This document shows, in pieces, positions 1 to 56,517 of a DNA stretch of 56,517 nt. Source of the DNA: a virus; the IMG/VR virus record IMGVR_UViG_3300033150_002389. One strand, 5' to 3'. Numbering within the stretch: the first letter of the stretch is position 1; every line of letters starts with the position of its first letter. Both the position numbers and the translations under genes were made by a program. The notes beneath the pieces are model-generated. The model worked only from the letters and a program-made list of their open reading frames with translations, was not told the origin of the DNA and searched no databases.

Positions 1-70
1 TTCGCAATCTCGTATCGCCCGAATCTCCCCGTCTTGCACTTCGGAGATCCGGGCCGGAAGTCCCCCACGC
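1..70. repeat. terminal direct repeat; bases 1-70 are identical to 56448-56517 (circular or terminally redundant genome, unique length about 56447 bp)
   Basis: exact 70-nt identity between window start and window end, read directly. Confidence 0.9.
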
Positions 71-29709: not shown

Positions 29710-31242
29710 ATGAAAATGGCTAATTTTTTAGTGAATCCGCCGCCTGTCCCCTCAATAGGCAAGTCAATGCAAAACGCTTTAAGCCTGAAATACCTCCAGA
29801 CGAGGCAGGCATTGGCGGAGCGAGATTTGAGGGACGTAGGCAGAGCAGAGGAATACGAGAAGGCGAAACGAAGTCTGGATGCCTTTAACGCTTACATTGA
29901 CACCTATGAGAAAACCGGGAACAAGGACCTTGCTGACAAGGCCTTCAAGGCTTTGGAGCCAGATTCAGACCCTCCAGCTGAAACGTGGCGTATAGATAAA
30001 AACGACCGCCACTACACCTTTGCTGATGGCACCGAGGTAATTGGGGACCCCCAAGACGTCAAGACCGTGATGGAGGAACTCAGGCAGTATTTGCCCCAAA
30101 TTCACCAGAACCCGGAATACCAAGCCAGATTCTTTGATTTCGCAGCTGCACATAATGTCGGTATCAAGTTCGGTAAAGCTGGGGAAATTGAGCCCTTATA
30201 CGACACGGCTGAGCGGAGGGTTTATAACCTTCCCAAGGCGGAGGCTCGGGCGAAGAAAGCAGAAGATCCGGTGCGGTACCAGACCTATGATGAACGAATT
30301 GGAAAGAGGAAGAAGTGGGAGCCCTCCACCAAGGAAGAGTTGCTTGACCTTGAGGAAGCCAAGCAGAGAATCAGGGCAAAATACGAGCAGCCTGGATTGA
30401 CCCCGGCGCAAAAGAGCAGGCTGAACTTGCTCGAAGAGAAGGCAAAAGCAGAGATTGAAATAATACAGGCGTACCGCATGGGAGAAAAGGATCTTCAGGG
30501 CAACCCTGTTGTGCCTCCAGAACAGGCAGCGGCCGCAACTCGACGCCTCGAAGAAACCATGAAACAGATAGACCAAATCCGCGGCCAAAGACCAACCAAC
30601 GCTTTAGCTCAACCTACAGGAATAGCCCCTCGTGGAGCGCCTATAACGCCATCAGCATTACCGGAGGCTCCAAGAGCAACGGCACCTGCGGCGCCGACCC
30701 AACCGACTGCTGGCTCATTGTTTTCCAAGCTTGTCGCTATCCATGCCGAGCTACTCAAACAGGGCGTTGACCCTATGAGTCTTCCCAAGGTTCGGGCTGC
30801 AACAGAAGCTTACTTCAAGCAGAACCCGGAAGCGCAAGAGCGTTTTAGGGATGCCCTTAATGCCCAGCAGATTGAGGGTCCCCCTCCGGTTTCGCCAGAA
30901 GTCAACGCCATACGCCAGGAACTGCGCAAGGAGGCAACCCAGAACCTGACAATTGCTGAGGCGGCAAAAGAGATTGGGAAACGGCTTGTATCGGGCATGA
31001 GTCCCGAGCGCGCTGGCGCAGTAGCGGCAGAGTACCTCCCACTTTTACCGGAAGATGAAAAGGTGGTGGACTTCGACTCATTCAAGAAGTTCTTCAAGAA
31101 GGTGCGGAAGGCGGATAAGTGGACTGAGCAATACCTCCGGGAGGCCTTCAAGACCTATTGGAAAGGCTTGAATTGGGCTGGCAATGCCCTCTTGGGCATA
31201 AGGATTCCTGGAACAGCCGGACTCAGAAGCGAGGAGAAGTAA
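29710..31242 (+). CDS. internal virion / ejection protein (putative)
   Basis: 510 aa; position before the giant protein. Confidence 0.4.
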   Translation: MKMANFLVNPPPVPSIGKSMQNALSLKYLQTRQALAERDLRDVGRAEEYEKAKRSLDAFNAYIDTYEKTGNKDLADKAFKALEPDSDPPAETWRIDKNDRHYTFADGTEVIGDPQDVKTVMEELRQYLPQIHQNPEYQARFFDFAAAHNVGIKFGKAGEIEPLYDTAERRVYNLPKAEARAKKAEDPVRYQTYDERIGKRKKWEPSTKEELLDLEEAKQRIRAKYEQPGLTPAQKSRLNLLEEKAKAEIEIIQAYRMGEKDLQGNPVVPPEQAAAATRRLEETMKQIDQIRGQRPTNALAQPTGIAPRGAPITPSALPEAPRATAPAAPTQPTAGSLFSKLVAIHAELLKQGVDPMSLPKVRAATEAYFKQNPEAQERFRDALNAQQIEGPPPVSPEVNAIRQELRKEATQNLTIAEAAKEIGKRLVSGMSPERAGAVAAEYLPLLPEDEKVVDFDSFKKFFKKVRKADKWTEQYLREAFKTYWKGLNWAGNALLGIRIPGTAGLRSEEK

Positions 31243-31244
31243 AA

Positions 31245-34200
31245 TTGCCCAACCTCAATGCCCTCATTCAAAGCGCCGAACGGGAAGCACAAGCCGTTAC
31301 GGGCGTAAAAGCCAACGCCCTTACTACTGCAGCTAGCCCCTCAACCGAAGAAAAAGACTACCAAAATTACCTCCTTCAATACGCAGTAACAAACCCTGAA
31401 AATCCTGCCCACCATTACGACTATCGCTCTGCCTACAGGGCTGGCGTGAAACCGATTATGTGGGACGATCTACCCAAAGAGGTTAAAGAGGAGGATATCC
31501 AACAAGCAATTACAGGGGAACGGACTGGCCGCCCCATGTCGAGAGAAGAAGCAATCCAGTTTTACTCTGGTCATTACATGTGGCCCGACCAATTCAAGCT
31601 TCCCGGACACCCTGTACCGCCGAAAAAAGAGGCGATCAATGCCCTCATTGCGCAGGCAGCAGAAGAGGCCCAAGCCACATTGCAAGGCACGGAAACCGAG
31701 TATCATCCGTGGGGTGCCGCCAAGATGACAGTCTATGACGCGCTGTCTGGGCTTTCTGCGCTGCCGCGCACCATAGGCATGGGAGAGACCGCCCGCAATG
31801 TGGCTGAGTTCTACGATAAGCGGGCTGAAGCGGATCCGGATATCCGGGAATTCAAGAAGGCGTCCGAGCAAGGGCGGGAAAGTATATGGACTGAGGCACT
31901 GGGTTCCGCTGGCCCGACAGCCATGGCTCTGGGCATGAGATTCATCCCCTATGTGGGGTTTCCACTCGCAGCCTCTTATTTCTGGCACCTGAATAAAGAC
32001 GAGGTGAAGGACCTTGCGCTAGCAAAGGGTGCCGACGAAAAAACAGCGGAGAGGATTTCCTGGATAGGCGGCACCGTCAACTCTGCACTTGATGTCCTTG
32101 GCCTGGAGGCGATTGCTGGGAAAATGCCATTCCTTCGCGGGCCAGTGAAGAGCGTGAAGCACCGCCTGGTAGGTGCTGCAGTCCGCCTAATGGCCAGTAC
32201 AGGTGGCGAAGGTCTCACAGAGGGAATGCAGGAAGTCGTCGGCGAGCTATCGTCCGAATATGCGGCGAGCAAAGATGTCAGAGAATTTCTCGATCGAGTC
32301 AGCCAAAAGCAGTGGTGGGACAAAGCACTTGCCAAAGCTGAAAAGTCACTGAAAGTCGGCTCCATGATGGGGGCCGTCTTCGGTGGTGCTGCATCGGTGG
32401 CGGAAACCAGGCTTCAAAAGCGCCTTAAACCTGAGAAGGCAACCAAGCCCCTAGAGGCCCCGAAAGACCTGAGCGAGCTCATAGAAGAGGCTGAAAAAGA
32501 GTATACCGAAATCTTGCAACAGGAGGTGCCCCGTGATCGTAAAGAGGAAGAAAGGATATTACGTCGTGAGCGAGCACAAAGGCAAGGACGGAAAGAGGAG
32601 GAGGCTCGGCGGCCCGTACCCCACGAGGGAAGAGGCCGAGGAGAGGCTGGAGCAGGTGGAGTATTTCAAGGCCCGCAGCCGACACGCCCAACGGAAGAAG
32701 CGGTCCGCGTCGAGGAGGAATATCAGAAAGGAGACAGAGTAGAAACGCCGGAGGGCGCCGGCGAGGTCCTCAGGGTCGCGCCAGCGGAAACATCTGGGGA
32801 GGAAAAGCTGACAGTGAAGCTGGACGAGGGAGAAACTGTCGAGGTCTCTCCCGCCGAAGAGAAGGTGGAAAAGCCGTCCCCCCCACCGGAGGAAGTCGAC
32901 GAGGCGGCACAGGAAGCCGAGCCTGCCCCTACCGAGGCGCAGAAGGAAGCTGGCAATTACAAGAAGGGTCATATCAATATACAGGGGATGGATATCTCCA
33001 TTGAGAATCCAAAAGGTTCGATAAGGGAGGGCGTAGACAAGCAAGGGAAAAAGTGGAAATCAAAGGTCGCGGCCCACTATGGCTACATCAGGCGCACAGA
33101 GGGCAAAGACGGCGATCAGGTAGATGTCTTTATCGGCCCGCGCCCTGAAACCAACAGGGTATTCGTGATAGACCAGGTTGACCCAGAGACCGGCCTGTTT
33201 GACGAACACAAAGCGATGGTCGGTTTCCCTACGAAGAAGATGGCCAAGACGGCCTACCTCCGCAGCTACACCAAGGATTGGAAGGGCCTGGGGGCGATCA
33301 CGGAAATGACCGTCAATCAATTCAAAGATTGGATTAGGACGGGAGACTCGTCGGCGCCCCTGGGTCTTAAAGAAAAGCGCAAGGTAGCAAAGGACGCTAC
33401 ACGGGGGGCTGCCGGCAACCTGCTTATAAAGACCTCAGATCAGACGATCTACGAATCCAGGCAACCCGTTCACGCCCTGATGCTCGGCGAATTTGGCGTA
33501 AAGCCAGAAGATGTTATTGACACTGGCTTGATTGATAAAACCGGGAAAGAGATGTGGGCCGGCAGCAAAGAGATCAAGCCGCTAACTGAAGAAGTCGCCG
33601 CAGCTGTCCGAGAGCAGAGGAAGCGGGAGCAGCAGAAAAAGAGGGCGCAGCGCGCAGCTAAAGCCAAGACCTTTCGGCAATGGGTCGCCCTCACAGGGGG
33701 CATTAATCCCCAGGACAAGACCTGGCGTGGCGAAATCCGAGACATGCGCTATACAATGAATGCCGCCGGCAAAAAAGTTCCAGCGCCGGGCTGGCCAGTT
33801 GGCATTTGGAATCGCAAGGCAAGAGGCGTGGATGAGCGGACCCATGACGCTATTGAGGCCGGGTGGCTTCCCACAGCGGCTACAGAAGACGACTTCATGC
33901 AGGCCCTAGAGCAAAACATTACGACCAAAATAACAAAGGCTGGTGCCCAGGAAGATGTTGACACCGTCGTAAAAGAAGAGGAAGATAAGTTAGAGCAAGA
34001 GTACGAGAGGGAGCTGGCCCGCCTTAAGGTTAAAATCAAGGAGGAATGGGATGCCGGAGGACAAGAATACACACCCGCCGATCTCGAAGGAGCTGCGCGA
34101 GAGCTTGAAGCCTACCTTGCGGCGAATGAACGTGACGAGATTAAAGCTGCGAGTATTGAAGAACTTGAGGAAATCTGGCGTCTTTTCGACGAAGCAGTAA

Positions 34201-37200
34201 AGCCAGAACCCCCAGTTGTTGAACAAGCCCTAGACGAAGCATGGAAGGAGATTTCCCAAGAAGACCAGGACTGGCTTGATAAAGAGCTCGGCCTGAAACC
34301 CGCCGAAGAGAAGCAGGCAGAAAGACCCCCCGCCAGAAAGAGCCCTCCTGAGAGCAAATCTATAGACGATGCCATTGGATGGGTTCACGCTGTGCAGCAA
34401 AGCGTGTGGGATCCCACGGAAAAGAAATGGCATTACACCCCGCGTGAAAAGATTATCAGGGCTATTGAAAAAGCCAAGAAAGCCGGGGCTCGGGTCGAAC
34501 GCCTGCCCGGTACGGGAAGGGAAAGCGCTGAGACCTGGAAGCTCTATGACGACGAAAAGGGCCTTGTCTACGTCCTTCAGAGGGAACCAAATGGGCGGAC
34601 CACTTGGACAAGTCGCAGGATTCCCCCATCCGCGTCCAAAAAATCCTATGAAGACATCGTGAAGCAACTTGAAGCCAAAGGTTTTTACGGGACGATTGAT
34701 CGGTTGAAGCGCGGCCTAATAACACTGGATGAAGCGCACAAGGAACTTTTGGGAGCAAGGCTGAAAATTAAGGTAGTACCGCTAAACCCCGAAGAGTTCG
34801 CAGCGGAACTTAAAGCCAAGGGTGTTGGTAGGCAGGAATCCTGGAGCCACTGGATTAGAAAGACTGGCTTAAAGCCGGGCATGGACGCGAAAGACTGGTA
34901 TAAGATATACGATTCCGTTACACTGAGTAAGCTGGAGGCTGCGCAGAAACCCAAAGAAGTCGAGAAAGCACAGCCAAGGGAGAAGGCTGCAAGACCAGCC
35001 CTTGAACTCAAACCGACCGAGCCAACGCCTCAAGAGAGGGTCGAATTACTGAGGGCAAAAGGCGAGATTGAAAAGCCCATCAAGGCATATCGGGAAGGGG
35101 ATCGAGAAATCATTAAACTCCCCGATGGCCGCAAGCTCATAAGAGGCAGGGACAGTGAAGGCCGGATCTACTACGAAGTCGAAGGCTCCTGGGAGGGCCT
35201 CAAAGAACTGGGCTTTGACCCGGAAACCTTTACGATTGACCAGGCAAAGGCCGCCCGAGTCTTTCAGCAATACCTCAAGCCTAAAGCCGCTATCCCCAAA
35301 GAAAAGGTTAAACCCCCTACCACCGGCAAACAGAAGAGTCTGCTTGCCCCGGAGAAGGGGGAAACGCTTGATATTTTTGAGAGAGGTGTTGACAAGATAG
35401 GTGAAAGCGGGGCACAATACATTTATGCACCTACCACGCCCCAAGAGCAATATTCACTATTTGATTTCAAGCCTGCCGAACGGCAAGAGGATCGTAAAGT
35501 ACCTCCCCGTAGACGTGTGCGAGTTTCCACAACCGGACGAATTAGAGCGGCGGGAGAACTCGTATCAGGCCCAGAGGATGTTGCAGCCCTCCTCGCCTTC
35601 CTCAGAAAATCGCCACAAGAATTCCTTTACACGGTAACGACTGATAAAGAAGGTGGAATCCTTGAGATCCACAAGTACGCCAAGGGTCACAGCGCCGGTG
35701 CCATAGCCAACCCCGTTGAACTTGCTGGGCGGATACTGAACATACCTGGGGCATCTGAAGCTTATCTCGTCCACAACCATCCCACAGGTGACCCGAAACC
35801 AGGCAAAGAAGATTACCAGATAACTTCAAGCGTCAGGAGCCTTCTTGAGGCTGGCGATGTGGAACTGACATCACTTATTCTTGGTGGAACCGAATACGTT
35901 GAGATGCGCCCAGGGGAAGTGGCAGAGACAACAAGGAAGATCCGCCCCAGAATTCGCAAAATTAGCCTTCCGGTGAAAGAGCGCAGCCTGCTTCTCGGCG
36001 GCGCCCCACAGACTAGAATCGTCGATTCGGAGGACGCGCTCAAAGCCCTGAAGGAGCAATTCAATAATGACGATGGCGTTATGCTCCTTGACCGCAAAAA
36101 CAGGGTGCTTGCCTTTGTGCCCTTTATCAAAGGCAGAAGCATGAAGCAGACCACCGCCGACGTTCTAAGGATCGCCGAAGCCACCAACGCCAGCGGAATG
36201 ATCGTCAACAACAGCGTGCTAACCCAGGCGCGCTCGGACTACGTCAATGCCCTGTGGAACGGAATTGAAGGTTTGACGATAGTAGACGTATTTTGGGAAG
36301 CCCAATCGTGGGCTTCGCGACAAGGGCGTGGCAAAGGTCCCACAAAATATGCCACGCTTCTTTCCGAAACCAAACTAGCTCTCCGCGGCGAACAACCATA
36401 CCGCCTATCCCCGCGCCAATTCCGAAATATCAAAAGGACCGCCAAGCTGGTTCACTCCTGGCTCGAAAAAGCCGGAGCACCTCCCGAAGTGCTTGAGCGC
36501 ATTGATGTAGAGCTAAAGCCCATAATCTCCTTGAGCGGAAAAAATATTGCCAAGTCAGTGAAGGAGTGGCAGGAACAGGGCATGGGGATACGCCAGATTT
36601 TTGGTGCTACCACCTTTGACGATTATCGCGCGATTATGGAACTTGCCCTGTCGCTTCAGAATTTGAAAGGGCTGGAACGCACCACCTATCACGAATACAT
36701 GCACGTGGCCCAGAGATGGCTACTGACAAAATCCGATGCGGAGCACTTGATAAAATATTTTGGTAGCGAGGAGGCCGCTGCGGATGCCTTTGCGGAATTC
36801 ATGGTGAATCGCTCATCGCTCAAAGATAAGCCCAACATGATCCGCGCAATCATGATGAGGTTGCGCCGCTACCTGCAAATCATTAGGAACGGGCTCAAGG
36901 GACAGGGTTTTACCCGTCCCGAGGATATCTGGGGCAAAATGGTCACCGGGCAGTATGTCCCGCATTTTGGCGCACCAGAGATCGAAGAGACTACGACGGC
37001 TTTCTCTTTGGCGGAGCCCCCGGGGAAAGAAGCAGAAGTCGAGCCCCGCATAGTTCCGACCAAGCATTTCTCAGGCACATTTGATGACTGGAACAGGCAC
37101 GTGATCGAGACCTGGGAAAAATACGGCGGACGCAAAGGCACTTTTCAGGCTGAAGAGAAGAAATACGAACAGGGTTTTTCAAGGGGGTCCTTAGGCCCCC

Positions 37201-40200
37201 TCCGCACGCTTGGGGAAATATGGAAGAACCGCAAAGCTGGGTGGAAAGCTCAAAAGCCAGATACCACGGTCCTCGACCGCCTCATATCAGTGCCGGCACA
37301 TCACTTTGAGAAGGTCCCCGCTTTAAGGAGAATGTACGAGGCGGCTCTTGCCAGGCCCGACACCTACTATGAGTACCTGAATCTCCTAACCAAGAACAGT
37401 AAAGGTGAATACCTTACCAAAAAGCTGGAGGACTTCAGAAAGCGCCACAAACAGGACTACGCTAAGGTCAAGGCGTACCTAGTCAACCGCGACCGCAACC
37501 AAATAGGGTACAGGGTTGAGAAAGACGAGGGTAGCGACCTATGGAAGCTCAGGAAACCAAACGGCCAGTTAGTGGGCAGTTATGACTCTGAGGCCAAGGC
37601 ATGGGGCGCTGCCGTTCAAATGGAGGCTCAGGACCTTAGAAAGCGCGGCTTTCCCGACCAAGCCGTTGACGCGGTGGTGTCCTTCCGGCTAATCATGCAT
37701 AAAGGCTTTAATATCCTGTCAGCTTCGATGCGCGAAATTATCAGCCAATATGAGGAGTCGGGTACGGCACTACCCTCAGTAGCGGTCAGGCTGGACAACA
37801 AAAGGGTAGAAGTTGACCTCAAAACCGCCCTAGCCATGATGGGGGATATGCGAGGTTACTACTTCCCGCGCATAAGAAGGCCCGGGCGATTCGTGCTGTA
37901 CGCCGAAAAGAAGGGCGAAAACCCGATCATGGAATTCTTTGACACCAAAACGCTTCTTGCCAAGCGGCACACAGAACTCCAAAGGAAAGGGTACACCGTC
38001 ACGAAGGATCTCTCCCCCAAGATGCCGGAAGACGTCTTCGAAATGGCAGGCCAGGTCATTGCCATGCAGGCGCAGATCAATCAGGCCCTTGAGCGTATAC
38101 ATGCGCGCGGACTATCTTTAGAGGACTTTAACCTCCAGTGGACCGACAGGATGGTAAGGCCAGGGCTCAGGGACTTCGTTATCACCGGACCGACATCCAA
38201 GAGGATGACACGGGTCTTTAAGGAGCTGGGCGGAAAGTTCTATTCAGCGTATGAAGGGGAGCCGAGGGCCTGGCATTTCTACAACCCTGGCCCGAATTTC
38301 GACAAAAAGGTCGCAAAGGCGCTGGCCAACTCAGTTGGCATAGTTGACCAAGAGGTGCAGGTACTGTTCGCAAAAGCCATGGCCGAGCAAGTGGCCAACA
38401 TCATAAAGGGTCGTGGGCACCGTGCCCACATGATCCAGCGCCAAATGGCCAAGGGCAAGGATGTCTGGATCGGTTATGAGGAGGACCCGGCTATTGCCGC
38501 GGCGAAATATGCGTCGGGGTTGGCCGCAGGGGAGGCTAAAAGGATCGCAGCGCTTGACATGGTTCGAGCGTTCACTGGCACAGACATTACCTGGCAGCAG
38601 TACAAGACCCTTGAGGGCGAGGACGCCACGTATGAGGAGTGGCTCAACATGGTGGAGGACCGGCGGGTCAACCCCACGAAACAGCCCAATGCCTTCAGGG
38701 AAGGCAAAGCGTACCTGCAGGACGTGCTCAGGAACGAAGAGTGGATTGACCGGTTCGTGGGCACAGTCAAGGGCGTGGCGGTGCTGAAATATCTAGGCGG
38801 CCGCATCAGCGCCCCCTTGGTGAACCTCACTGCCATGGTAACGTCAGTCCCGGCAGCTATGGAAGGTATCGCTGGGATCCCGATACACAAGACCTTCCGT
38901 CTCATCGGCAACGCCTCCAGGCTTTACGGCCACTATAAATTCGGTGACAAGGATAAATTACCGCAGCACGTCAAGGACCTTTTTGAGGAGATCGAACAGA
39001 AAGGCTGGCACAAGTCGCAATACAATCGCGAAGCGCTGTCAGTTCTTGAGAGCAAGCTAGGCCGAGGGTGGAACAGGGCAATCGAATGGGCCATGCTCGG
39101 CTTCGGGGCTACCGAGCAACTCAACAGGGTTTCGACAATTGCAGGCACTTACCTTGGATTGAAGCTCCAAACACCCCAAGGGAGCTTTAACCACGACGAA
39201 GCCCTGCGCATTGCAAAGGAGGTCTCAGACAAGGCTCACGGAGTTTACGGAAAGGCGAATATCCCATACCTCGCTAGGGGCGCCAATCCTGCCGCGCAAA
39301 TTGCCAGAATGTTTTACGTATTCCGGACCTTTTCGCACAACTACCTTCTGACCATGAAGCGAGTGTGGGGTCCCGGCTGGAAGCCCGAGCACGCAAAGGC
39401 TTTTTCGTGGATGCTCCTGAGTCCAGCCGTGCTGGCCGGGACTGGGGCGACTGTCTCTACGCCTATCATAACGGCAATCGCTCAAGCCCTGGGCATAGGC
39501 GGAGAAGACCCAGAGGAAAAATTTTACGACTGGTTGAACCGGAATTTTGGCGAATACGCTGAGCGATTCGGCAGGTTCGGCGCTTTCGGTCTCGCAGGCG
39601 TATCCCTTAAGGGTTCGCTTCAGATCGGAATTACCGACATCCCAACGACGATACCCGAAATCCTTGGCGCTCCTGGAAGCGTCATATCTGAAACATTCTA
39701 CCGCGGTCCACAAAGCATTTTGCGTGGCGACGTCCTAAAGGGCATCGAAAATGAACTACCGCTCTTCATGGCCGGAATAGTAAAGGCATATAGAGAGACC
39801 ACAGAGGGGGTGACCACCAGAAACAATGCACCCGTCTTCTGGGGCAATGAACCGCTCCTCCCGGAGACGATTGATGCACTTTACAGAGCTCTCTCCTTTA
39901 ATCCCGCAAGGATCGCGGGGATTAGGGAGAAGCAATGGAAGGAGAGGCGCATTGAACAGAAATATCGAGAAATGAGGACGGATATCTACGCCAAGATCAA
40001 GCGCTTTTACCTGCGTCCCCTATCTGAACGGTCCAAGGCGGATTGGTTGGATATCATCGCTGAAATTCAAGATTACAACGAAGCGGTAAGGGCGCACGGG
40101 CTTGAGCGCCTCGCACCCCTCATCACCCGGAAATCCATACGAAACAATATCAGGCGGGCATTCCGGCCCCCAAAAAGGGAACGCCTAAGGCAGGCGATGC

Positions 40201-40205
40201 CATAA
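31245..40205 (+). CDS. giant polyvalent ejection protein (about 2986 aa) with pyrophosphatase-like, JAB/MPN and zincin HExxH domains
   Basis: TTG start with GAGGAG 8 nt upstream; DGDQVDVFIG (PPase signature-like), LVHNHPTGDPKPGKEDYQIT (JAB), HEYMH (zincin); C-terminal hydrophobic segments. Confidence 0.6.
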   Translation: MPNLNALIQSAEREAQAVTGVKANALTTAASPSTEEKDYQNYLLQYAVTNPENPAHHYDYRSAYRAGVKPIMWDDLPKEVKEEDIQQAITGERTGRPMSREEAIQFYSGHYMWPDQFKLPGHPVPPKKEAINALIAQAAEEAQATLQGTETEYHPWGAAKMTVYDALSGLSALPRTIGMGETARNVAEFYDKRAEADPDIREFKKASEQGRESIWTEALGSAGPTAMALGMRFIPYVGFPLAASYFWHLNKDEVKDLALAKGADEKTAERISWIGGTVNSALDVLGLEAIAGKMPFLRGPVKSVKHRLVGAAVRLMASTGGEGLTEGMQEVVGELSSEYAASKDVREFLDRVSQKQWWDKALAKAEKSLKVGSMMGAVFGGAASVAETRLQKRLKPEKATKPLEAPKDLSELIEEAEKEYTEILQQEVPRDRKEEERILRRERAQRQGRKEEEARRPVPHEGRGRGEAGAGGVFQGPQPTRPTEEAVRVEEEYQKGDRVETPEGAGEVLRVAPAETSGEEKLTVKLDEGETVEVSPAEEKVEKPSPPPEEVDEAAQEAEPAPTEAQKEAGNYKKGHINIQGMDISIENPKGSIREGVDKQGKKWKSKVAAHYGYIRRTEGKDGDQVDVFIGPRPETNRVFVIDQVDPETGLFDEHKAMVGFPTKKMAKTAYLRSYTKDWKGLGAITEMTVNQFKDWIRTGDSSAPLGLKEKRKVAKDATRGAAGNLLIKTSDQTIYESRQPVHALMLGEFGVKPEDVIDTGLIDKTGKEMWAGSKEIKPLTEEVAAAVREQRKREQQKKRAQRAAKAKTFRQWVALTGGINPQDKTWRGEIRDMRYTMNAAGKKVPAPGWPVGIWNRKARGVDERTHDAIEAGWLPTAATEDDFMQALEQNITTKITKAGAQEDVDTVVKEEEDKLEQEYERELARLKVKIKEEWDAGGQEYTPADLEGAARELEAYLAANERDEIKAASIEELEEIWRLFDEAVKPEPPVVEQALDEAWKEISQEDQDWLDKELGLKPAEEKQAERPPARKSPPESKSIDDAIGWVHAVQQSVWDPTEKKWHYTPREKIIRAIEKAKKAGARVERLPGTGRESAETWKLYDDEKGLVYVLQREPNGRTTWTSRRIPPSASKKSYEDIVKQLEAKGFYGTIDRLKRGLITLDEAHKELLGARLKIKVVPLNPEEFAAELKAKGVGRQESWSHWIRKTGLKPGMDAKDWYKIYDSVTLSKLEAAQKPKEVEKAQPREKAARPALELKPTEPTPQERVELLRAKGEIEKPIKAYREGDREIIKLPDGRKLIRGRDSEGRIYYEVEGSWEGLKELGFDPETFTIDQAKAARVFQQYLKPKAAIPKEKVKPPTTGKQKSLLAPEKGETLDIFERGVDKIGESGAQYIYAPTTPQEQYSLFDFKPAERQEDRKVPPRRRVRVSTTGRIRAAGELVSGPEDVAALLAFLRKSPQEFLYTVTTDKEGGILEIHKYAKGHSAGAIANPVELAGRILNIPGASEAYLVHNHPTGDPKPGKEDYQITSSVRSLLEAGDVELTSLILGGTEYVEMRPGEVAETTRKIRPRIRKISLPVKERSLLLGGAPQTRIVDSEDALKALKEQFNNDDGVMLLDRKNRVLAFVPFIKGRSMKQTTADVLRIAEATNASGMIVNNSVLTQARSDYVNALWNGIEGLTIVDVFWEAQSWASRQGRGKGPTKYATLLSETKLALRGEQPYRLSPRQFRNIKRTAKLVHSWLEKAGAPPEVLERIDVELKPIISLSGKNIAKSVKEWQEQGMGIRQIFGATTFDDYRAIMELALSLQNLKGLERTTYHEYMHVAQRWLLTKSDAEHLIKYFGSEEAAADAFAEFMVNRSSLKDKPNMIRAIMMRLRRYLQIIRNGLKGQGFTRPEDIWGKMVTGQYVPHFGAPEIEETTTAFSLAEPPGKEAEVEPRIVPTKHFSGTFDDWNRHVIETWEKYGGRKGTFQAEEKKYEQGFSRGSLGPLRTLGEIWKNRKAGWKAQKPDTTVLDRLISVPAHHFEKVPALRRMYEAALARPDTYYEYLNLLTKNSKGEYLTKKLEDFRKRHKQDYAKVKAYLVNRDRNQIGYRVEKDEGSDLWKLRKPNGQLVGSYDSEAKAWGAAVQMEAQDLRKRGFPDQAVDAVVSFRLIMHKGFNILSASMREIISQYEESGTALPSVAVRLDNKRVEVDLKTALAMMGDMRGYYFPRIRRPGRFVLYAEKKGENPIMEFFDTKTLLAKRHTELQRKGYTVTKDLSPKMPEDVFEMAGQVIAMQAQINQALERIHARGLSLEDFNLQWTDRMVRPGLRDFVITGPTSKRMTRVFKELGGKFYSAYEGEPRAWHFYNPGPNFDKKVAKALANSVGIVDQEVQVLFAKAMAEQVANIIKGRGHRAHMIQRQMAKGKDVWIGYEEDPAIAAAKYASGLAAGEAKRIAALDMVRAFTGTDITWQQYKTLEGEDATYEEWLNMVEDRRVNPTKQPNAFREGKAYLQDVLRNEEWIDRFVGTVKGVAVLKYLGGRISAPLVNLTAMVTSVPAAMEGIAGIPIHKTFRLIGNASRLYGHYKFGDKDKLPQHVKDLFEEIEQKGWHKSQYNREALSVLESKLGRGWNRAIEWAMLGFGATEQLNRVSTIAGTYLGLKLQTPQGSFNHDEALRIAKEVSDKAHGVYGKANIPYLARGANPAAQIARMFYVFRTFSHNYLLTMKRVWGPGWKPEHAKAFSWMLLSPAVLAGTGATVSTPIITAIAQALGIGGEDPEEKFYDWLNRNFGEYAERFGRFGAFGLAGVSLKGSLQIGITDIPTTIPEILGAPGSVISETFYRGPQSILRGDVLKGIENELPLFMAGIVKAYRETTEGVTTRNNAPVFWGNEPLLPETIDALYRALSFNPARIAGIREKQWKERRIEQKYREMRTDIYAKIKRFYLRPLSERSKADWLDIIAEIQDYNEAVRAHGLERLAPLITRKSIRNNIRRAFRPPKRERLRQAMP
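32533..32742 (+). CDS. embedded +1-frame ORF, 69-aa basic protein
   Basis: GTG with AGGAGG 6 nt upstream; GC3-rich codons in this frame while the host frame is low complexity with A-ending codons. Confidence 0.4.
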   Translation: MIVKRKKGYYVVSEHKGKDGKRRRLGGPYPTREEAEERLEQVEYFKARSRHAQRKKRSASRRNIRKETE

Positions 40206-40248
40206 GATGCCATAAAACGCCATAAACTGCCACGACTTGCCATACTTT
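40199..40248. repeat. five tandem 10-bp repeats (consensus GCCATAAnnT) overlapping the stop codon of the giant gene
   Basis: gccataagat gccataaaac gccataaact gccacgactt gccatacttt read directly. Confidence 0.55.
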
Positions 40249-40259
40249 GCGATGACCGA

Positions 40260-40288
40260 GGCGGCGCTTCAGCGCCGCCTGTTTTTTT
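40260..40288 (+). terminator. rho-independent terminator
   Basis: GGCGGCGC-ttca-GCGCCGCC stem followed by seven T. Confidence 0.7.
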
Positions 40289-40307
40289 ACCAAAAAGGAG
40301 ATTTGTC

Positions 40308-42875
40308 ATGAAATCCAGGCACTTAAAAATCGTTTTTCAGGCGCTTCTGATTATCTTTATGCTTCTCGCCCACCTTTCTTGGGCGGGAACCCTCATGTCC
40401 AATCCCAAGTTTCAAGCGTTCGACTCTTCCGGTGTACCCCTTGCCGGAGGAAAGCTCTACAGCTATCTCCCGGGTACCACGACAAGCAAGGCTACATACT
40501 CTGACCGCAACCTTTCGACGCCCAACACCAATCCTGTCATTTTGGATAGTCGCGGTGAGGCGACGATCTATGGGTCCGGGCTTTACAAGCTTGTCCTTAA
40601 AGATTCGTCCGATGTCACTATCTGGACCATGGATAACGTGGAATTCGTGGGGGGAGGGGGATCTTACAATCTCTATCCTAACCCCTCGGAAAGTGACCAT
40701 GGCGCTGCTGGAAACGGATCGTCACTTTACGACCTCCTTACGGCACTAGGCACCAGCAAAAAAGCGACCGTGGCGTTCACCCATAACGGCTCCTCGAACA
40801 CCACCACCTACACGGTCAACACCACCTACGACATTTCTTCCTACACCAACGTAACGTTTCAATTCGAAAACGGTGCCCTCCTCTCTCCTGCTGCTGGAGT
40901 GACGGTAACGATTTATTCGCCGGAGAATATTAATGCGCCGGCAACACAACAGATTTTTGATGGTGATGGATCAATCGCCTATTCTGTTCCAGGGCACATA
41001 TATACCGGCTGGTACGGGTCTGACACTGATGCTTATCAAGATGCTTTTGGCAACGCAAATTGCCATATCACCTGCACTCATGATGTCAGCCTTACAGATA
41101 AAATTACAATACAAGATGGTCAGTGGATTGACTTTCTCCCAGGTGTGGTACTAACTCAGACCGGCACAGATAAAAATACTTTTTATGCTTCTTCAAAAAA
41201 TAATATCACCATTGATGGCCGAGGCGGAAAACTGGTTGGCAGATTGGTTACAGAGCAGCTTACAGACAGAGGATTAATCCATTTTGATGGTTGCACAGAT
41301 GTCAGAGTAACTGATCTTGAGGTAATGACCGGCTTTGATTTGGTTTGGATTGCTAATTCGGATCGTGTATGGGTAGAGAGAAACGAGCTGCATAACTACC
41401 AGCGTGTTGCACTGAATGGCACGAGCAATACAAAATTTCATTTTGATAAAAATACTATTTACGACAATCAGGAAACAGGGAAGCAGAATTGTTATGCTAT
41501 CCAAGCAACAGGTGATAATGATGGCGGCAGCCCGCTTGAATATTCCTCAATCAATTTTAACAAGATAACAGGTCCTCGGGCCTGGGATGGCATTATGTCT
41601 CATGACTGTGACGATCTTGAGATTATAGGCAATGTCATAAAAGATGTTCGCCAGGGGATTGATGTTGGGCTGGCAGGCAGCACAAATATAGTTAAGAATG
41701 TAAGGATCATTGGAAATTATCTTGAAGGCACCTCAACGGATACTTGGTCTGGCACAGGTGCTAATAATTCCGGCATTCAAATCTCTGGTCAACCTGTGGC
41801 AGGCGATTGGACAGATTTTGATGCTATTTCAGATGTAGTAGTGTCAGACAATATCATTACTGGCTTCAATAAGCACACAACATCCGCTGGAAATGCAGGG
41901 ATTTTTGCTCAATATATCAGAAATTTCTCGCTTACAGGAAATGTGATTTACGGCTTGGAAGATAATTGGACTCATGGTGCTGGGATTGTATTAGTTGGTG
42001 CGACGGTTTCTGGGACAATTTCAGGAAACACTATCACAGCTAAATCAGGCGAAACAGGTCCTATGAATCAGGGAATTCGTCTGTATAACCTTGATCTATG
42101 TTACGGTGTTACAGTTGTTGGCAATACAATTGCCGATGAATCAGGCAATATGGATTATGCTATTCGGGTAACAGGTTCAAATTTTATAGATGCAGTAGTT
42201 GAAAAGAATAACTTTTACGGTTTTACCACACCTTACAATTTTGGAGCCACTGGAAACAAAGGCCCTCTGCCATTTTGTGATGTAGGCTATTGGAATGGTA
42301 ATGCTTGGGCTAATCCCGTTACCTATTTAGGCGCGAAGATGCGTTATTATACTGCTACTGATAAAGTTGACACTGGGGGGTTGGTTCTTAGAAAGCGTAT
42401 AGAAGATACAATTGCCTCAGTGGACGACACTGATACGATTACTATAAATGGATCAACATCTAATATGGCAGTTGGAGACGTAATTCACATTTTCAAAGAT
42501 ACAGATGAGTCTAGTCCTTATGTTCATAGTACTACAATCGCAACGATTGTCGATGCTGATACTATAGACATTACAGGTGCACTTGGAGCAACAACGGAGG
42601 TCTCAGCGGGGAATAAAATCTACGTTGTAGAATGGGAAAAGCCGTATGCATCAGGGACGGGGACAATTGCCAGTGGAACAACAAGCAAGGTTATTACTCA
42701 TGGATTAGGATTTACCCCCGACCCACAAGATATAACCATTACTCTAATAGAAAATCCTACAAATACCCCAGGGGCAATCTGGGTAGATAGTATTGGCGAT
42801 ACAACTTTTACGGTAAACTGTGAGAATGACCCTGGTGCATCAAATCTGGATTTTGCTTGGAAATATAGGAAATAA
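40308..42875 (+). CDS. tailspike / tail fiber with right-handed beta-helix (pectate-lyase-like) domain
   Basis: AAGGAG SD; conserved tail-fiber N-terminal motif ...GVPLAGGKLYSYLPGTTTSKATYSD...NTNPVILDSRGEA; beta-helix repeat motifs; AT-rich C-terminal two-thirds. Confidence 0.65.
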   Translation: MKSRHLKIVFQALLIIFMLLAHLSWAGTLMSNPKFQAFDSSGVPLAGGKLYSYLPGTTTSKATYSDRNLSTPNTNPVILDSRGEATIYGSGLYKLVLKDSSDVTIWTMDNVEFVGGGGSYNLYPNPSESDHGAAGNGSSLYDLLTALGTSKKATVAFTHNGSSNTTTYTVNTTYDISSYTNVTFQFENGALLSPAAGVTVTIYSPENINAPATQQIFDGDGSIAYSVPGHIYTGWYGSDTDAYQDAFGNANCHITCTHDVSLTDKITIQDGQWIDFLPGVVLTQTGTDKNTFYASSKNNITIDGRGGKLVGRLVTEQLTDRGLIHFDGCTDVRVTDLEVMTGFDLVWIANSDRVWVERNELHNYQRVALNGTSNTKFHFDKNTIYDNQETGKQNCYAIQATGDNDGGSPLEYSSINFNKITGPRAWDGIMSHDCDDLEIIGNVIKDVRQGIDVGLAGSTNIVKNVRIIGNYLEGTSTDTWSGTGANNSGIQISGQPVAGDWTDFDAISDVVVSDNIITGFNKHTTSAGNAGIFAQYIRNFSLTGNVIYGLEDNWTHGAGIVLVGATVSGTISGNTITAKSGETGPMNQGIRLYNLDLCYGVTVVGNTIADESGNMDYAIRVTGSNFIDAVVEKNNFYGFTTPYNFGATGNKGPLPFCDVGYWNGNAWANPVTYLGAKMRYYTATDKVDTGGLVLRKRIEDTIASVDDTDTITINGSTSNMAVGDVIHIFKDTDESSPYVHSTTIATIVDADTIDITGALGATTEVSAGNKIYVVEWEKPYASGTGTIASGTTSKVITHGLGFTPDPQDITITLIENPTNTPGAIWVDSIGDTTFTVNCENDPGASNLDFAWKYRK

Positions 42876-43127
42876 ACCGATTACCGTACTCAAACAAGAC
42901 AGTTATGGAAGCGGATGAGCATACCCAATGGATGGTGTAACTGAACAAATTCTATCATCATGTTCTATTAGTACGGAGATGGTAGCAAAGACATTCTTCC
43001 CAGAGCGCTTTCGTCTACCATTCGCCAAAGAGATTCATGGGAAGATTTTTAACCTCATTAAGTTGGGCTATGTTTTACCATCTTTTTGCCGCTAGGTGGG
43101 TAAGGTCCTGAAAGTATTACTCAGTCC

Positions 43128-43155
43128 GCTGGTTCAAATCCAGTCGTCCCGACCA
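43128..43155 (+). other. tRNA 3'-end-like sequence (T-arm GCTGG-TTCAAAT-CCAGT, acceptor 3' strand, CCA); attP core candidate
   Basis: T-loop and acceptor read directly; no matching 5' acceptor strand or anticodon arm upstream; 20 nt from the integrase stop. Confidence 0.45.
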
Positions 43156-43175
43156 GCGATTTGCAATAATATCGG

Positions 43176-44396
43176 TTAGTTATCGCTTTCGGAGTGCCTA
43201 AATTTCTTTGCCACTTTTTTGCCACCCCTAGCATCGGAATAGATGGCCCTGAGGTCGTCTCCTTCCTCCCAGTAGTAGCGGTCAAATGCCTTGGTAGTGC
43301 TCCTCATCGAGCCATAGCGGATCTCCTCCGGGGTGCGGTATTTTCTGAGAGCCCTGGTGGTTGAGTGGGTAGTGCCCCCGTAGAGGTCCACTCCCTGGAT
43401 TCCGAGCTTGGCACAGGCCCGCTTCCACCACTTGTAAAAATGTTTCTCGCCGAATTGCCTCCCATTCTTATGGCGGAAGAAATAGGCGTCAGGATCTATG
43501 CAAGGGGGTAGGGCCCCCAAGATCTCCACGTCTTCGTCAATGAGATACACGATTTTGGACCTATTCTCCTTGGGGTGCCGTATCAGGATCTCTCTTGCCT
43601 TCAGGTTGATGTCCCCTTCCCGGATATTGCGCCATTCCTCGGGCCGCACGTTAAAGTAGGTGGTCATCCATTTGATGCCCAGCCAGGTCTTGTAGGGGGC
43701 CCACCCCTTCAGCGTATCCAAGATACCGAATTGGTCTGCCTTCGTAACAGTCTTTCGCCGGCGAAGCTCAAACTGGACCTTCGGGAACTTGGGCATTACC
43801 GAGATCTCATCATTATCGTAAAGCCACTTGAAGAACTGCTTAAGTGTCTGAATATAATTGAATTTGCTCTTATTGCTGACGTTATACTGGGTGAGAAAAA
43901 ACTGGAAGTCTTTCAGGCGCAGGCGTTTTACGCTGACAGGGCCAAAAACTCGAATCGCCTTCCAAATATGGTCTTCAAGGGCCCGATAGGTGTTTGGGCT
44001 GATGCCGTCCGGCCTGATCTCCGCCTCTCGGAGGCGGAGCCACTCATTGGCTAGATTTTCAAACCCAAGGGGATTATCAGCCCGATATTCCCTGGGGTCG
44101 AACGTTCCCTCATCCTCCTTGAACCTGAGGCCAGTGAGGCATTTTTGAGCGGCCTCGTAGCTCCTGAAACGCCGTGTGACCCCCCTGAAGTAGATCCGAA
44201 ACCGCCTGCTGGCCCTTTGCTCTGGATGGTTCGGGCAGAAGAGTCCCCTCCGACCATCATCTTTAAACCTGCCCCCGCATAAGGGGCACTTTTCATCAGA
44301 ATAGATTCCCCCTTTCATGCAATCGCCCCCAACCCCAGATTTGGCTGATACGGGGCCGATCTTACGTTGGTAAGGGGTAGATGTCAAGGAGGCCAT
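43176..44396 (-). CDS. int: tyrosine recombinase / phage integrase
   Basis: C-terminal HSTTRAL (HxxR) and AFDRYY catalytic Tyr region; adjacent to tRNA-like att sequence. Confidence 0.7.
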   Translation of the reverse strand: MASLTSTPYQRKIGPVSAKSGVGGDCMKGGIYSDEKCPLCGGRFKDDGRRGLFCPNHPEQRASRRFRIYFRGVTRRFRSYEAAQKCLTGLRFKEDEGTFDPREYRADNPLGFENLANEWLRLREAEIRPDGISPNTYRALEDHIWKAIRVFGPVSVKRLRLKDFQFFLTQYNVSNKSKFNYIQTLKQFFKWLYDNDEISVMPKFPKVQFELRRRKTVTKADQFGILDTLKGWAPYKTWLGIKWMTTYFNVRPEEWRNIREGDINLKAREILIRHPKENRSKIVYLIDEDVEILGALPPCIDPDAYFFRHKNGRQFGEKHFYKWWKRACAKLGIQGVDLYGGTTHSTTRALRKYRTPEEIRYGSMRSTTKAFDRYYWEEGDDLRAIYSDARGGKKVAKKFRHSESDN

Positions 44397-44617
44397 AGAA
44401 AATCAAGTCTCGTTCAAAAATTGCCAACTGAGTTGGGGTAATTTTGGCCTACCTAAGATAGGCCGAGACGGAATCCTGAATTACTTTCGGGTTGCCACCC
44501 TTTTTCTTTCGACCAGGGTCTTTCCCAATGCGATATCGGTGCAAGGGACAACTTGTGCTTGGGCATTCAGTGACCGCCTTATAGGGCTTCCGGCCCTTGC
44601 CCGCTCCAATGCCCCGA

Positions 44618-44860
44618 TTATCGTTCGTCAGCGAACGACATGAATATCCACCGCTGACCACCGCATAGGAGAATCGAGGCGGAGGTCAAATTGCCATCCG
44701 GATCTGTGCCAATCTCCGGCTCACTAAACAGCGGGCACCAGTCTCCACATGGGACCAATTGCTCTGTTTGGTGGGGGCATAGTTGCTCCATCGCACGGGA
44801 ACCGTGCTTGGATGGCCTGTAAATAACAAGATGCCCTTGCTCATTAATCTCGCCGTTCAT
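44618..44860 (-). CDS. hypothetical small Cys-containing protein
   Basis: GGGAGAAAGGA SD upstream of ATG at 44860. Confidence 0.35.
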   Translation of the reverse strand: MNGEINEQGHLVIYRPSKHGSRAMEQLCPHQTEQLVPCGDWCPLFSEPEIGTDPDGNLTSASILLCGGQRWIFMSFADER

Positions 44861-44928
44861 TCCTTTCTCCCTTCTAAGCTCAACCGTCTAAGTATTTTTG
44901 GGCTGCCCTCACGAGGTCATATCTCAGC

Positions 44929-56413: not shown

Positions 56414-56517
56414 TTACTTGCCCCCCTTCTTAACCGGGAACTCATACTTCGCAATCTCGTATCGCCCGAATCTCCCCGTCTTGCACTTCGGAGATCCGGG
56501 CCGGAAGTCCCCCACGC
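56414..56517 (-). CDS. C-terminal end of the junction-spanning hypothetical gene (stop TAA at 56416-56414)
   Basis: frame continues from window position 1 through 56447 and reads ...RYEIAKYEFPVKKGGK-stop. Confidence 0.5.
   Translation of the reverse strand, partial: VGDFRPGSPKCKTGRFGRYEIAKYEFPVKKGGK
56448..56517. repeat. terminal direct repeat, second copy (identical to 1-70)
   Basis: exact identity. Confidence 0.9.

What the first reader, a model, noticed from the sequence alone, without database searches (positions are those of the whole stretch)
43128..44396. Integrase with adjacent tRNA 3'-end mimic as attP core
A T-arm, a 7-nt acceptor 3' strand, discriminator and CCA are present 20 nt from the integrase stop, but no 5' acceptor strand or anticodon arm precedes them. 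That is the expected attP signature of a phage that integrates into the 3' end of a host tRNA gene and regenerates it.
Basis: partly seen in the sequence, partly recalled or inferred. Interest (0 to 1): 0.45.

Follow-up and report, generated by a model that had tools for sequence, protein, structure and literature searches.

The report
Phage attachment site copying tRNA-Pro end
Next to its integrase gene, this complete phage genome carries an exact 29-base copy of the end of a bacterial proline tRNA gene, the ordinary, well-known mark of a phage that inserts into that tRNA gene and repairs it; the one oddity is that the integrase lacks a normally essential catalytic arginine.

Summary
Window 43127-43155 (+) is a single-copy 29-nt block. 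It is identical to positions 48-76 of bacterial tRNA-Pro genes (C48, T-arm, 3' acceptor strand, discriminator A, CCA). Nothing tRNA-like lies upstream, and the block ends 20 nt from the stop of a convergent tyrosine integrase gene (43176-44318/44396, -). The window is a closed phage genome with a 70-nt terminal overlap, so this is the attP state. The five loci that carry the four closest integrase relatives looked up (55-64% identity) all have the same tRNA-Pro 3' end, convergent with the integrase and 24-32 nt from its stop. Four of these five loci hold a complete tRNA-Pro (two are followed by a non-phage gene, an attL-like junction). One holds a 3' fragment only, a second attP. Across the family, 16 of 42 loci have a tRNA or tRNA 3' fragment within 150 nt of the integrase stop, about 100 times background. 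Identity starting at the T-stem points to a crossover in the T-loop or 3' end, as in mycobacteriophage Ms6. The likely hosts are Desulfobacterales. This is a new member of a known kind and of low interest. One caveat: this integrase alone has Thr at catalytic Arg-II and Arg at His-II, so its activity is uncertain. No lysogen of this exact phage was found.

The parts
43127..43155 (+). attP core: a 29-nt block identical to positions 48-76 of bacterial tRNA-Pro genes (C48, T-arm, 3' acceptor strand, A73, CCA). Identity extends to 43126 and to 43157 for some Desulfobacteraceae/deltaproteobacterial tRNA-Pro genes.
   Evidence: A 30-mer extended 4 nt upstream (AGTC...) has 0 matches in the genome and viral collections.
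43133..43139 (+). T-loop TTCAAAT, the candidate 7-bp overlap (strand-exchange) region, flanked by the inverted T-stem arms 43128-43132 and 43140-43144. Inferred, not mapped.
   Evidence: Identity blocks start at C47/48 in the window and at T54 in the second attP, L191. The analogy is the 26-nt Ms6 attP core (PMC1762012).
43156..43175 (+). 20-nt AT-rich spacer between CCA and the integrase stop. It contains ATAATATCGG (43166-43175), which resembles ATGATATCAGG at the same place in the L191 attP. Possibly an integrase core-type site; inferred.
43176..44318 (-). Tyrosine integrase gene, 380 aa from the probable start M27. The longest ORF runs to 44396 (406 aa). It has an N-terminal CxxC..CxxH zinc ribbon plus a beta-sheet/helix domain, a SAM-like core-binding domain and a catalytic domain with Arg-I R251 and Tyr Y374, but Thr343 at Arg-II and Arg365 at His-II.
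43074..43092 (-). Left-arm copy of a direct repeat (TTTACCATCTTTTTGCC on the + strand; contains GCGGCAAA on the - strand). Candidate arm-type integrase site; weak and inferred.
   Evidence: (D7).
43207..43225 (-). Right-arm copy of the same repeat (TTTGCCACTTTTTTGCC on the + strand; two GTGGCAAA units on the - strand), inside the 3' end of the integrase gene. Candidate arm-type site; weak and inferred.
   Evidence: (D7).
43099..43112 (+). GGTAAGGTCCTGAA, 10 of 14 bases identical to GGTATGGGTCTAAA just upstream of the core in the L191 attP. Possibly a protein-binding site; based on two sequences only.

Best explanation
The block at 43127-43155 is the core of the phage attachment site (attP) of a temperate tailed phage. 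It is a DNA copy of the last 29 nt of a host tRNA-Pro gene. The adjacent tyrosine integrase (43176-44318, minus strand) pairs this core with the identical stretch of a chromosomal tRNA-Pro gene (attB). It exchanges strands within the shared sequence, most likely in or just 3' of the T-loop.

The fragment points towards the integrase gene. Integration would therefore leave, at one prophage end (attL), the host's 5' two-thirds of the tRNA fused to the phage-borne 3' third, followed after 20 nt by the end of int. The tRNA gene stays intact. At the other end (attR), the displaced host 3' fragment would sit after the tail-fibre gene.

Shown: the sequence identity, the adjacency and orientation, the free circular state, and the same arrangement (complete tRNA or fragment) beside the closest relatives' integrases. 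Inferred: the position of the crossover, the arm-type sites, the host (Desulfobacterales), and that this particular enzyme is active. Its Arg-II is Thr, so I put activity at roughly 60-70%.
For: 1. The identity is exact. The 29 nt match tRNA-Pro positions 48-76, occur once in the window, and ARAGORN finds no tRNA gene.

2. The block is 20 nt from the stop of a convergent gene. That gene has the tyrosine-recombinase fold: Foldseek E about 1e-9 to XerA, Tn1549 Int and lambda Int; PHROG integrase 6e-19.

3. The window is a closed phage genome. It has a 70-nt terminal overlap and terminase, portal and helicase genes. The fragment is therefore in the attP state, not at a prophage border.

4. The closest relatives show the same arrangement. 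P0002 (64% identical; L194 and L195), P0004 (60%; L190) and P0009 (55%; L192 and L193, the same element as viral contig L003) each carry the same tRNA-Pro 3' end, convergent, 24-32 nt after the int stop. The tRNA-Pro is complete in L190, L192, L193 and L194. In L195 the contig ends inside the tRNA. NUDIX (L190) and guanylate-cyclase (L192/L003) genes lie beyond the tRNA, with phage capsid, protease and portal genes on the int side. P0003 (59%; L191) has only the fragment, with identity from the T-loop to CCA.

5. The pattern holds across the family. Of 42 evaluable loci, 16 have a complete tRNA (Pro, His, Lys) or a strict T-arm/acceptor/CCA fragment within 150 nt of the int stop. Background is 8 such patterns in 614 kb. 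Two more loci have a convergent tmRNA gene 1.8 kb downstream.

6. The literature describes exactly this signature. attP holds a tDNA fragment that restores the gene, 3760 of 3919 islands carry 3' fragments, and crossovers fall in the anticodon loop, the T-loop or the T/acceptor junction (PMC4383910). The Ms6 attP core is a 26-nt T-arm-to-3'-end block of tRNA-Ala (PMC1762012).
Against: 1. No lysogen of this phage was found, and no attR. Integration is inferred from relatives.

2. The integrase has Thr at Arg-II. Among 120 homologues this position is R in 114 and K in 4. The window protein is the only one with T (its own database copy P0001 is the second T in that count), and the motif was not found in one truncated homologue. 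It also has Arg at His-II. The mapping rests on an alignment of the catalytic-domain profile to XerA 5hxy (E 8e-4). Arg-II is retained in every described tyrosine-recombinase type (PMC8371274), so the enzyme may be inactive.

3. The identity block (29-32 nt) is shorter than the 45-50 nt tRNA-Pro fragments in other viral contigs, and the crossover has not been mapped.

4. The Pfam PF00589 score (23.0) is below the gathering cut-off of 27.1.

5. The same 3' end occurs in many phyla, so the host cannot be pinned down from it alone.
Confidence: 0.8

Rival explanations
1. Same origin, but the module is now defective. The tRNA-Pro fragment is a genuine attP, but the integrase has lost catalysis (Arg-II to Thr, His-II to Arg). 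The phage would then be effectively virulent or episomal, or would depend on a helper integrase. This is nested within the best explanation as to what the element is, and differs only on present function.
For: T343 and R365 are unique among 120 homologues and align with Arg-II and His-II of XerA. Arg-II is conserved in all described bacterial and archaeal types.
Against: The gene is a full-length intact ORF. It departs from the family at only 5 of 89 highly conserved columns, within the family's range of 0-9, so there is no general decay. The attP core is still a perfect match to tRNA-Pro. The paired change (Arg lost at one phosphate-contacting position, Arg gained at another) could be compensatory. 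A metagenome assembly or sequencing variant cannot be excluded.
Confidence: 0.3
2. The block is the remnant of a phage-encoded tRNA gene that lost its 5' two-thirds by deletion, and has nothing to do with integration.
For: Phages often carry tRNA genes. Two viral contigs with the same 22-mer hold it inside tRNA arrays (L002, L009).
Against: The surviving part is a perfect copy with a sharp boundary at the T-stem. A decaying pseudogene would not stay perfect. It sits 20 nt from int in the same orientation as in the relatives, several of which have the complete host tRNA with a non-phage gene beyond it. There are no other tRNAs in the window.
Confidence: 0.03
3. The fragment is host DNA carried on the contig: a prophage border (attL or attR), imprecise excision, or a chimeric assembly.
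For: Metagenomic 'viral' contigs often include host flanks, for example L003, L005 and L011.
Against: The 70-nt terminal overlap closes the contig into a circle. The block is single-copy. Phage genes lie on both sides (tail-fibre-like ORF to 42875, int from 43176). Only 29 nt of the tRNA are present.
Confidence: 0.03
4. The element acts at the RNA level. A T-arm/acceptor-like 3' end on a phage transcript would serve as a processing, stability or terminator signal between the convergent tail-fibre and int transcripts.
For: The T-arm hairpin lies between convergent genes, and tRNA-like 3' ends are used by some viruses (own knowledge).
Against: There is no 5' acceptor strand to form a minihelix and no T-run. 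Exact identity to a specific host tRNA, together with the complete tRNAs next to relatives' integrases, is explained by DNA recombination and not by RNA mimicry.
Confidence: 0.03

Closest known systems
Mycobacteriophage Ms6 attP/Int (T-loop class of tRNA integration; tRNA-Ala)
   Same: The attP core is a short block (26 nt in Ms6, 29 nt here) running from the T-stem to the 3' end of a tRNA gene. attP and attB cores are identical. The 7-nt T-loop is proposed as the strand-exchange site. Several isoacceptor genes that share the 3' end are potential targets (PMC1762012).
   Different: The target is tRNA-Pro rather than tRNA-Ala. The host is probably Desulfobacterales rather than Mycobacterium. 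The integrase belongs to a divergent family with an N-terminal zinc ribbon and has no tblastn match in GenBank phages. Nothing here has been tested experimentally.
Islander-type tDNA islands and prophages (Williams 2002 sublocation scheme; Hudson et al. 2015)
   Same: attP holds a 3' tDNA fragment that restores the split gene. A tyrosine integrase gene lies next to it. The crossover subsite is 'J' (T-stem region), which accounts for 1836 of 3919 islands in that database (PMC4383910).
   Different: Here the element is seen as a free circular phage genome, so the island signature (tDNA plus displaced fragment in one replicon) could not be observed for it.
Lambda-type heterobivalent tyrosine integrases (lambda Int, Tn1549 Int, XerA as structural neighbours)
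   Same: The predicted fold matches full-length lambda Int and Tn1549 Int. The Arg-I, Lys-region and Tyr motifs align. The N-terminal beta-sheet plus helix is compatible with an arm-binding domain.
   Different: His-I is Gly throughout this family. In this protein Arg-II is Thr and His-II is Arg. An extra CxxC..CxxH zinc ribbon sits at the N-terminus. Arm-type sites are only conjectured.

Membership tests
Tyrosine recombinase / phage integrase superfamily | Two-domain fold (core-binding domain plus catalytic domain) | tested here: met
   The AlphaFold2 model has mean pLDDT 85.5. Foldseek matches XerA, Tn1549 Int, lambda Int, IntI4, XerH and Cre at E 1e-9 to 1e-4.
Tyrosine recombinase / phage integrase superfamily | Arg-I and the tyrosine nucleophile | tested here: met
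   R251 (NVRPEE) aligns with Arg-I of XerD and XerA. Y374 (DRY) aligns with the XerA catalytic Tyr. Both are invariant in the family.
Tyrosine recombinase / phage integrase superfamily | Arg-II of the HxxR motif | tested here: not met
   The window has GGT-T343-HS, where 114 of 120 homologues have R and 4 have K. The position aligns with R of XerA HVLRH and of IntI4 HTLRH. The family as a whole meets this feature; this protein does not.
Tyrosine recombinase / phage integrase superfamily | His-II (or Trp), nine residues before the Tyr | tested here: not met
   The window has R365 (SMRSTT), where 93 homologues have H. It aligns with H of XerA LGHAS.
Tyrosine recombinase / phage integrase superfamily | Pfam PF00589 score above the gathering cut-off | tested here: not met
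   Score 23.0 bits against a cut-off of 27.1 (E 7e-5). PHROG phrog_1 integrase scores 6e-19. The family is divergent.
tDNA-targeting integrative elements (Islander signature) | attP carries an end fragment of a tRNA or tmRNA gene that reaches the gene's 3' end | tested here: met
   29 nt are identical to tRNA-Pro positions 48-76, including CCA.
tDNA-targeting integrative elements (Islander signature) | A tyrosine integrase gene within or adjacent to the element's att site | tested here: met
   The int stop is 20 nt from the CCA.
tDNA-targeting integrative elements (Islander signature) | In lysogens, a complete tDNA at one end and a displaced cognate fragment in the same orientation at the other end | tested here: inconclusive
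   No lysogen of this phage was found. The exact protein has no encoding contig on record, and no family integrase lies on the genome loci that carry the 25-mer (L003, the only hit in that search, is a viral contig). For relatives, attL-like junctions (int, complete tRNA-Pro, non-phage gene) were seen, but the contigs were too short to reach attR.
T-loop / T-acceptor-junction sublocation class of tRNA integration | The identity block between attP and the tRNA begins at the T-stem/T-loop rather than at the anticodon arm | tested here: met
   Identity begins at C47/C48 in the window and at T54 in the related L191 attP.
T-loop / T-acceptor-junction sublocation class of tRNA integration | [quoted passage not shown] | not testable with these tools
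   This needs attL and attR sequences from a host whose tRNA differs from the phage copy, or in vitro cleavage mapping.
Heterobivalent (lambda-like) integrases | An N-terminal arm-binding domain and repeated arm-type sites flanking the core | tested here: inconclusive
   The model shows strands 30-32, 66-70 and 73-77 plus helix 80-95, and full-length lambda Int aligns over 350-360 columns. A 17-nt direct repeat lies at 43074 and 43207, and three GNGGYAAA units on one strand lie within 141 nt of each other, against 25 in the whole window. The motif was defined after seeing the data.

The most novel reading that the evidence does not exclude
The integrase is active despite lacking the canonical Arg-II. 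Its active site would be remodelled, with the phosphate-contacting arginine moved to the His-II position (R343T plus H365R, possibly helped by D264N). That would be a natural tyrosine recombinase with a non-canonical catalytic set. It belongs to a divergent, zinc-ribbon-bearing integrase family of uncultured Desulfobacterota phages that targets the 3' ends of tRNA and tmRNA genes.
Probability: 0.12. Interest if true: 0.5.

Novelty: new member of a known kind. Interest (0 to 1): 0.2.

Why it matters
The block marks this uncultured 56.4-kb phage as temperate, or recently temperate. It predicts the phage's integration site (tRNA-Pro GGG or CGG genes) and the exact prophage borders (attL 20 nt beyond the int stop; attR after the tail-fibre-like gene). 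It also narrows the likely host to Desulfobacterales-like bacteria. This helps with host assignment and prophage delimitation in metagenomes, but it adds no new principle: tRNA 3'-end attP sites have been known since the late 1980s. The only point of wider interest is the integrase's missing Arg-II. If the enzyme proved active, that would bear on how tyrosine recombinases build their active site.

Tried and rejected
1. A 30-mer that adds 4 upstream bases (AGTCCGCTGG...) was searched to find a host tRNA or a prophage copy with longer identity. It gave 0 hits in the genome and viral collections, so the identity really ends at C47/C48.

2. Exact-protein look-ups of the integrase (406 aa and the 380-aa call P0001) found no contig on record. 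The source contig and any integrated copy could not be retrieved.

3. The search for related loci with the single protein found nothing in the viral collection and only two distant loci in metagenomes. An alignment-based scan was needed.

4. An Rfam scan of 42900-43300 found no tRNA. Only when the stretch was cut to the fragment did the tRNA/tmRNA clan appear, and then weakly.

The Arg-II mapping therefore rests on the XerA and IntI4 alignments and on motif spacing.

6. tblastn of the integrase against GenBank phages gave no match. NCBIfam gave only sub-threshold Xer hits.

7. Williams 2002 (PMC100330) is not held in the library. It is cited through PMC4383910 and PMC1762012.

8. My first geometry script overshot the stop codon for loci that had gene coordinates. 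It was corrected.

9. Rejected readings: a prophage border or chimera (the contig closes into a circle and the block is single-copy), a decayed phage tRNA gene, and an RNA-level mimic.

Full report
**What is in the sequence.** On the plus strand, 43128-43144 is a T-arm (GCTGG TTCAAAT CCAGT). It is followed by CGTCCCG (3' acceptor strand, 43145-43151), A (discriminator, 43152) and CCA (43153-43155). After 20 nt comes the stop codon (43176-43178) of a 406-codon ORF on the minus strand, 43176-44396. ARAGORN finds no tRNA or tmRNA in the whole window. Nothing upstream can supply a 5' acceptor strand or an anticodon arm. The 29-mer 43127-43155 occurs once in the window even with 3 mismatches allowed, and never in 100 shuffles.

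**Which tRNA it copies.** The 22-mer GGTTCAAATCCAGTCGTCCCGA occurs in 17 viral contigs. In seven it lies in a complete tRNA-Pro (GGG or CGG). In ten it is a bare fragment. Of 121 matches, 108 are inside complete tRNA-Pro genes: 60 GGG, 46 CGG and 2 UGG. In 108 of the 121, CCA follows.

A 30-mer that adds the window's next four upstream bases has no match in genomes or viral contigs. The copy therefore begins at C48. It begins at C47 in nine sampled matches. Eight of these are in tRNA-Pro genes of Desulfobacteraceae or 'deltaproteobacterial' genomes, where identity reaches 30-32 nt. The ninth is a bare fragment on a Coriobacteriaceae contig. Rfam, given only the fragment, reports only the tRNA/tmRNA clan, as a 5'-truncated match.

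**The genome is a free phage.** The window's first 70 nt repeat its last 70 nt, so the contig closes into a circle of about 56,447 bp. It encodes a large terminase, a portal, a helicase and an SbcC-like protein. The fragment is single-copy. This is the attP configuration, not a prophage border.

**The neighbouring gene.** The ORF is a tyrosine recombinase. PHROG integrase scores 6e-19. Pfam PF00589 is sub-threshold at 23.0 against 27.1 bits. The AlphaFold2 model has pLDDT 85.5, and its best structural matches are XerA, Tn1549 Int, lambda Int, IntI4, XerH and Cre. It belongs to a large family: 458 hits, mostly unnamed or called 'integrase', and the few with an organism name come from Deltaproteobacteria, Desulfobacteraceae or Thermodesulfobacteriota. 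Family members are about 380 aa, with an N-terminal CxxC...CxxH zinc ribbon. Homologues start at the window's M27, the public gene call is 380 aa, and residues 1-26 are disordered. The real start is therefore probably 44318.

**Comparative test of the interpretation.** If the fragment is attP, a lysogen should show a complete tRNA-Pro followed within a few tens of nt by the 3' end of int, in convergent orientation. That is what the closest relatives show.
- **P0002** (64% identical): a complete tRNA-Pro(CGG) lies 24 nt after the stop in L194. A second, shorter contig (L195) shows the same 3' end but stops inside the tRNA.
- **P0004** (60% identical; an NCBI MAG): a complete tRNA-Pro(CGG) lies 24 nt after the stop in L190, followed by a NUDIX gene.
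- **P0009** (55% identical; also viral contig L003/L145, 54% by tblastn): a complete tRNA-Pro(GGG) lies 32 nt after the stop, followed by a guanylate-cyclase gene. Phage capsid, protease and portal genes lie on the int side.
- **P0003** (59% identical; L191): no tRNA, only ...CTGATTCAAATCCAGTCGTCCCGACCA. This is a second attP whose identity starts at the T-loop.

All of these share the window's 3'-end sequence.

Across 42 evaluable family loci, 4 have a complete convergent tRNA (Pro, Pro, His, Lys). Eight, including the window, have a convergent fragment only. Four have a fragment on the same strand as int. All of these lie within 150 nt of the int stop. The same strict pattern occurs only 8 times in 614 kb of the remaining sequence. 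Two further members have a convergent tmRNA gene 1.8 kb downstream.

**How it most likely works.** This is integrase-mediated site-specific recombination between the 29-nt core and the identical part of a chromosomal tRNA-Pro gene. The phage needs to carry only the part of the gene that lies 3' of the crossover. The left edges of identity (C47/48 here, T54 in L191) therefore place the crossover in the T-loop or further 3'. This is the 'T-loop' or 'J' subsite of the Williams/Islander scheme (PMC4383910). It matches the 26-nt Ms6 core, where T-loop changes lower integration efficiency (PMC1762012).

After integration, attL would read host tRNA 5' part, phage 3' part, 20 nt, then the end of int. 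attR would read the tail-fibre-like gene (ending 42875), about 250 nt of P arm, the displaced host 3' fragment, then host DNA. GGG, CGG and UGG isoacceptor genes often share this 3' end, so more than one attB may exist per host.

Possible protein-binding sites are inferred only. They are a 17-nt direct repeat on either side of the core (43074-43090 and 43207-43223), three GNGGYAAA units on one strand within 141 nt of each other, and two short motifs shared with the L191 attP (43099-43112 and 43166-43175).

**The caveat.** Aligning a profile of the catalytic domain to XerA (5hxy, E 8e-4) puts the window's R251 on Arg-I, T343 on Arg-II, R365 on His-II and Y374 on the tyrosine. A weaker IntI4 alignment agrees, as does the spacing (343 to 365 is 22 residues; 365 to 374 is 9), which matches lambda Int and XerD from my own knowledge. 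Among the 120 listed homologues, Arg-II is R in 114 and K in 4, and it is T only in this protein. His-II is H in 93, and it is R only here.

The protein otherwise departs from the family at just 5 of 89 highly conserved columns, which is within the family's normal range of 0-9. It is not a decaying pseudogene. Arg-II is kept in all described bacterial and archaeal integrase types, whereas His-I varies (PMC8371274). In this family His-I is Gly. So this allele is either catalytically impaired or has a rearranged active site. I cannot decide between these.

**Comparison with what is known, and novelty.** This is the classic tRNA-gene attP signature. The closest described case in layout is Ms6. 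The integrase family is divergent: there is no tblastn match in 50,697 GenBank phage records and only sub-threshold Xer hits in NCBIfam. The principle is nonetheless the same. It is a new member of a known kind and of low interest (0.2). The most novel reading still open is an active integrase without the canonical Arg-II (probability about 0.12).

**What is not shown.** No lysogen or attR of this phage was found. The crossover point, the arm sites, the host and the enzyme's activity are all unestablished.

Noticed in passing
window 1-70 and 56448-56517: An exact 70-nt terminal direct overlap. The contig closes into a circle of about 56,447 bp, so it is a complete phage genome (or terminally redundant).
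   Followed up: yes
window 43176-44396 (-), codons 343 and 365 (also 264): The integrase has Thr at catalytic Arg-II and Arg at His-II, both unique among 120 homologues, plus D264N at a position that is Asp in all 35 other aligned family members. The rest of the protein is normally conserved.
   Followed up: partly
window 31158-40205 (+): A single 3015-aa ORF in the structural module, upstream of the 855-aa tail-fibre-like ORF (40308-42875). It was not characterised.
   Followed up: no
window 40001-44000: GC content drops to 0.46-0.47 across the tail-fibre-like gene, attP and int, against 0.52-0.56 in the flanking modules. This suggests a mosaic or exchanged host-specificity/integration module.
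   Followed up: no
L006 2619-2640 and 4699-4720 (IMGVR_UViG_3300017687_000002): Two tRNA-Pro(CGG) 3' fragments of about 48 nt lie 2,080 nt apart in the same orientation, with no complete tRNA. This could be a tandem or nested att arrangement.
   Followed up: no
L140 5001-8446 and L141 5001-8349: Family integrases (45-46% identical) are separated from a convergent tmRNA gene by about 1.8 kb of cargo (a NACHT gene in L140; SocA_Panacea and a toxin-antitoxin-like gene in L141), next to smpB. These look like small islands in ssrA that carry defence-like genes.
   Followed up: no
L147, L158, L162, L170 (viral contigs): In four family loci the tRNA 3' fragment lies 9-41 nt after the int stop but on the same strand as int, the opposite orientation to the window. 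The att/int geometry is therefore not fixed in this family.
   Followed up: no
window 44397-44928 (-): Two small overlapping ORFs (70 and 80 aa) lie between int and the helicase gene, with no PHROG match. This is the position where an excisionase or regulator might be expected.
   Followed up: partly
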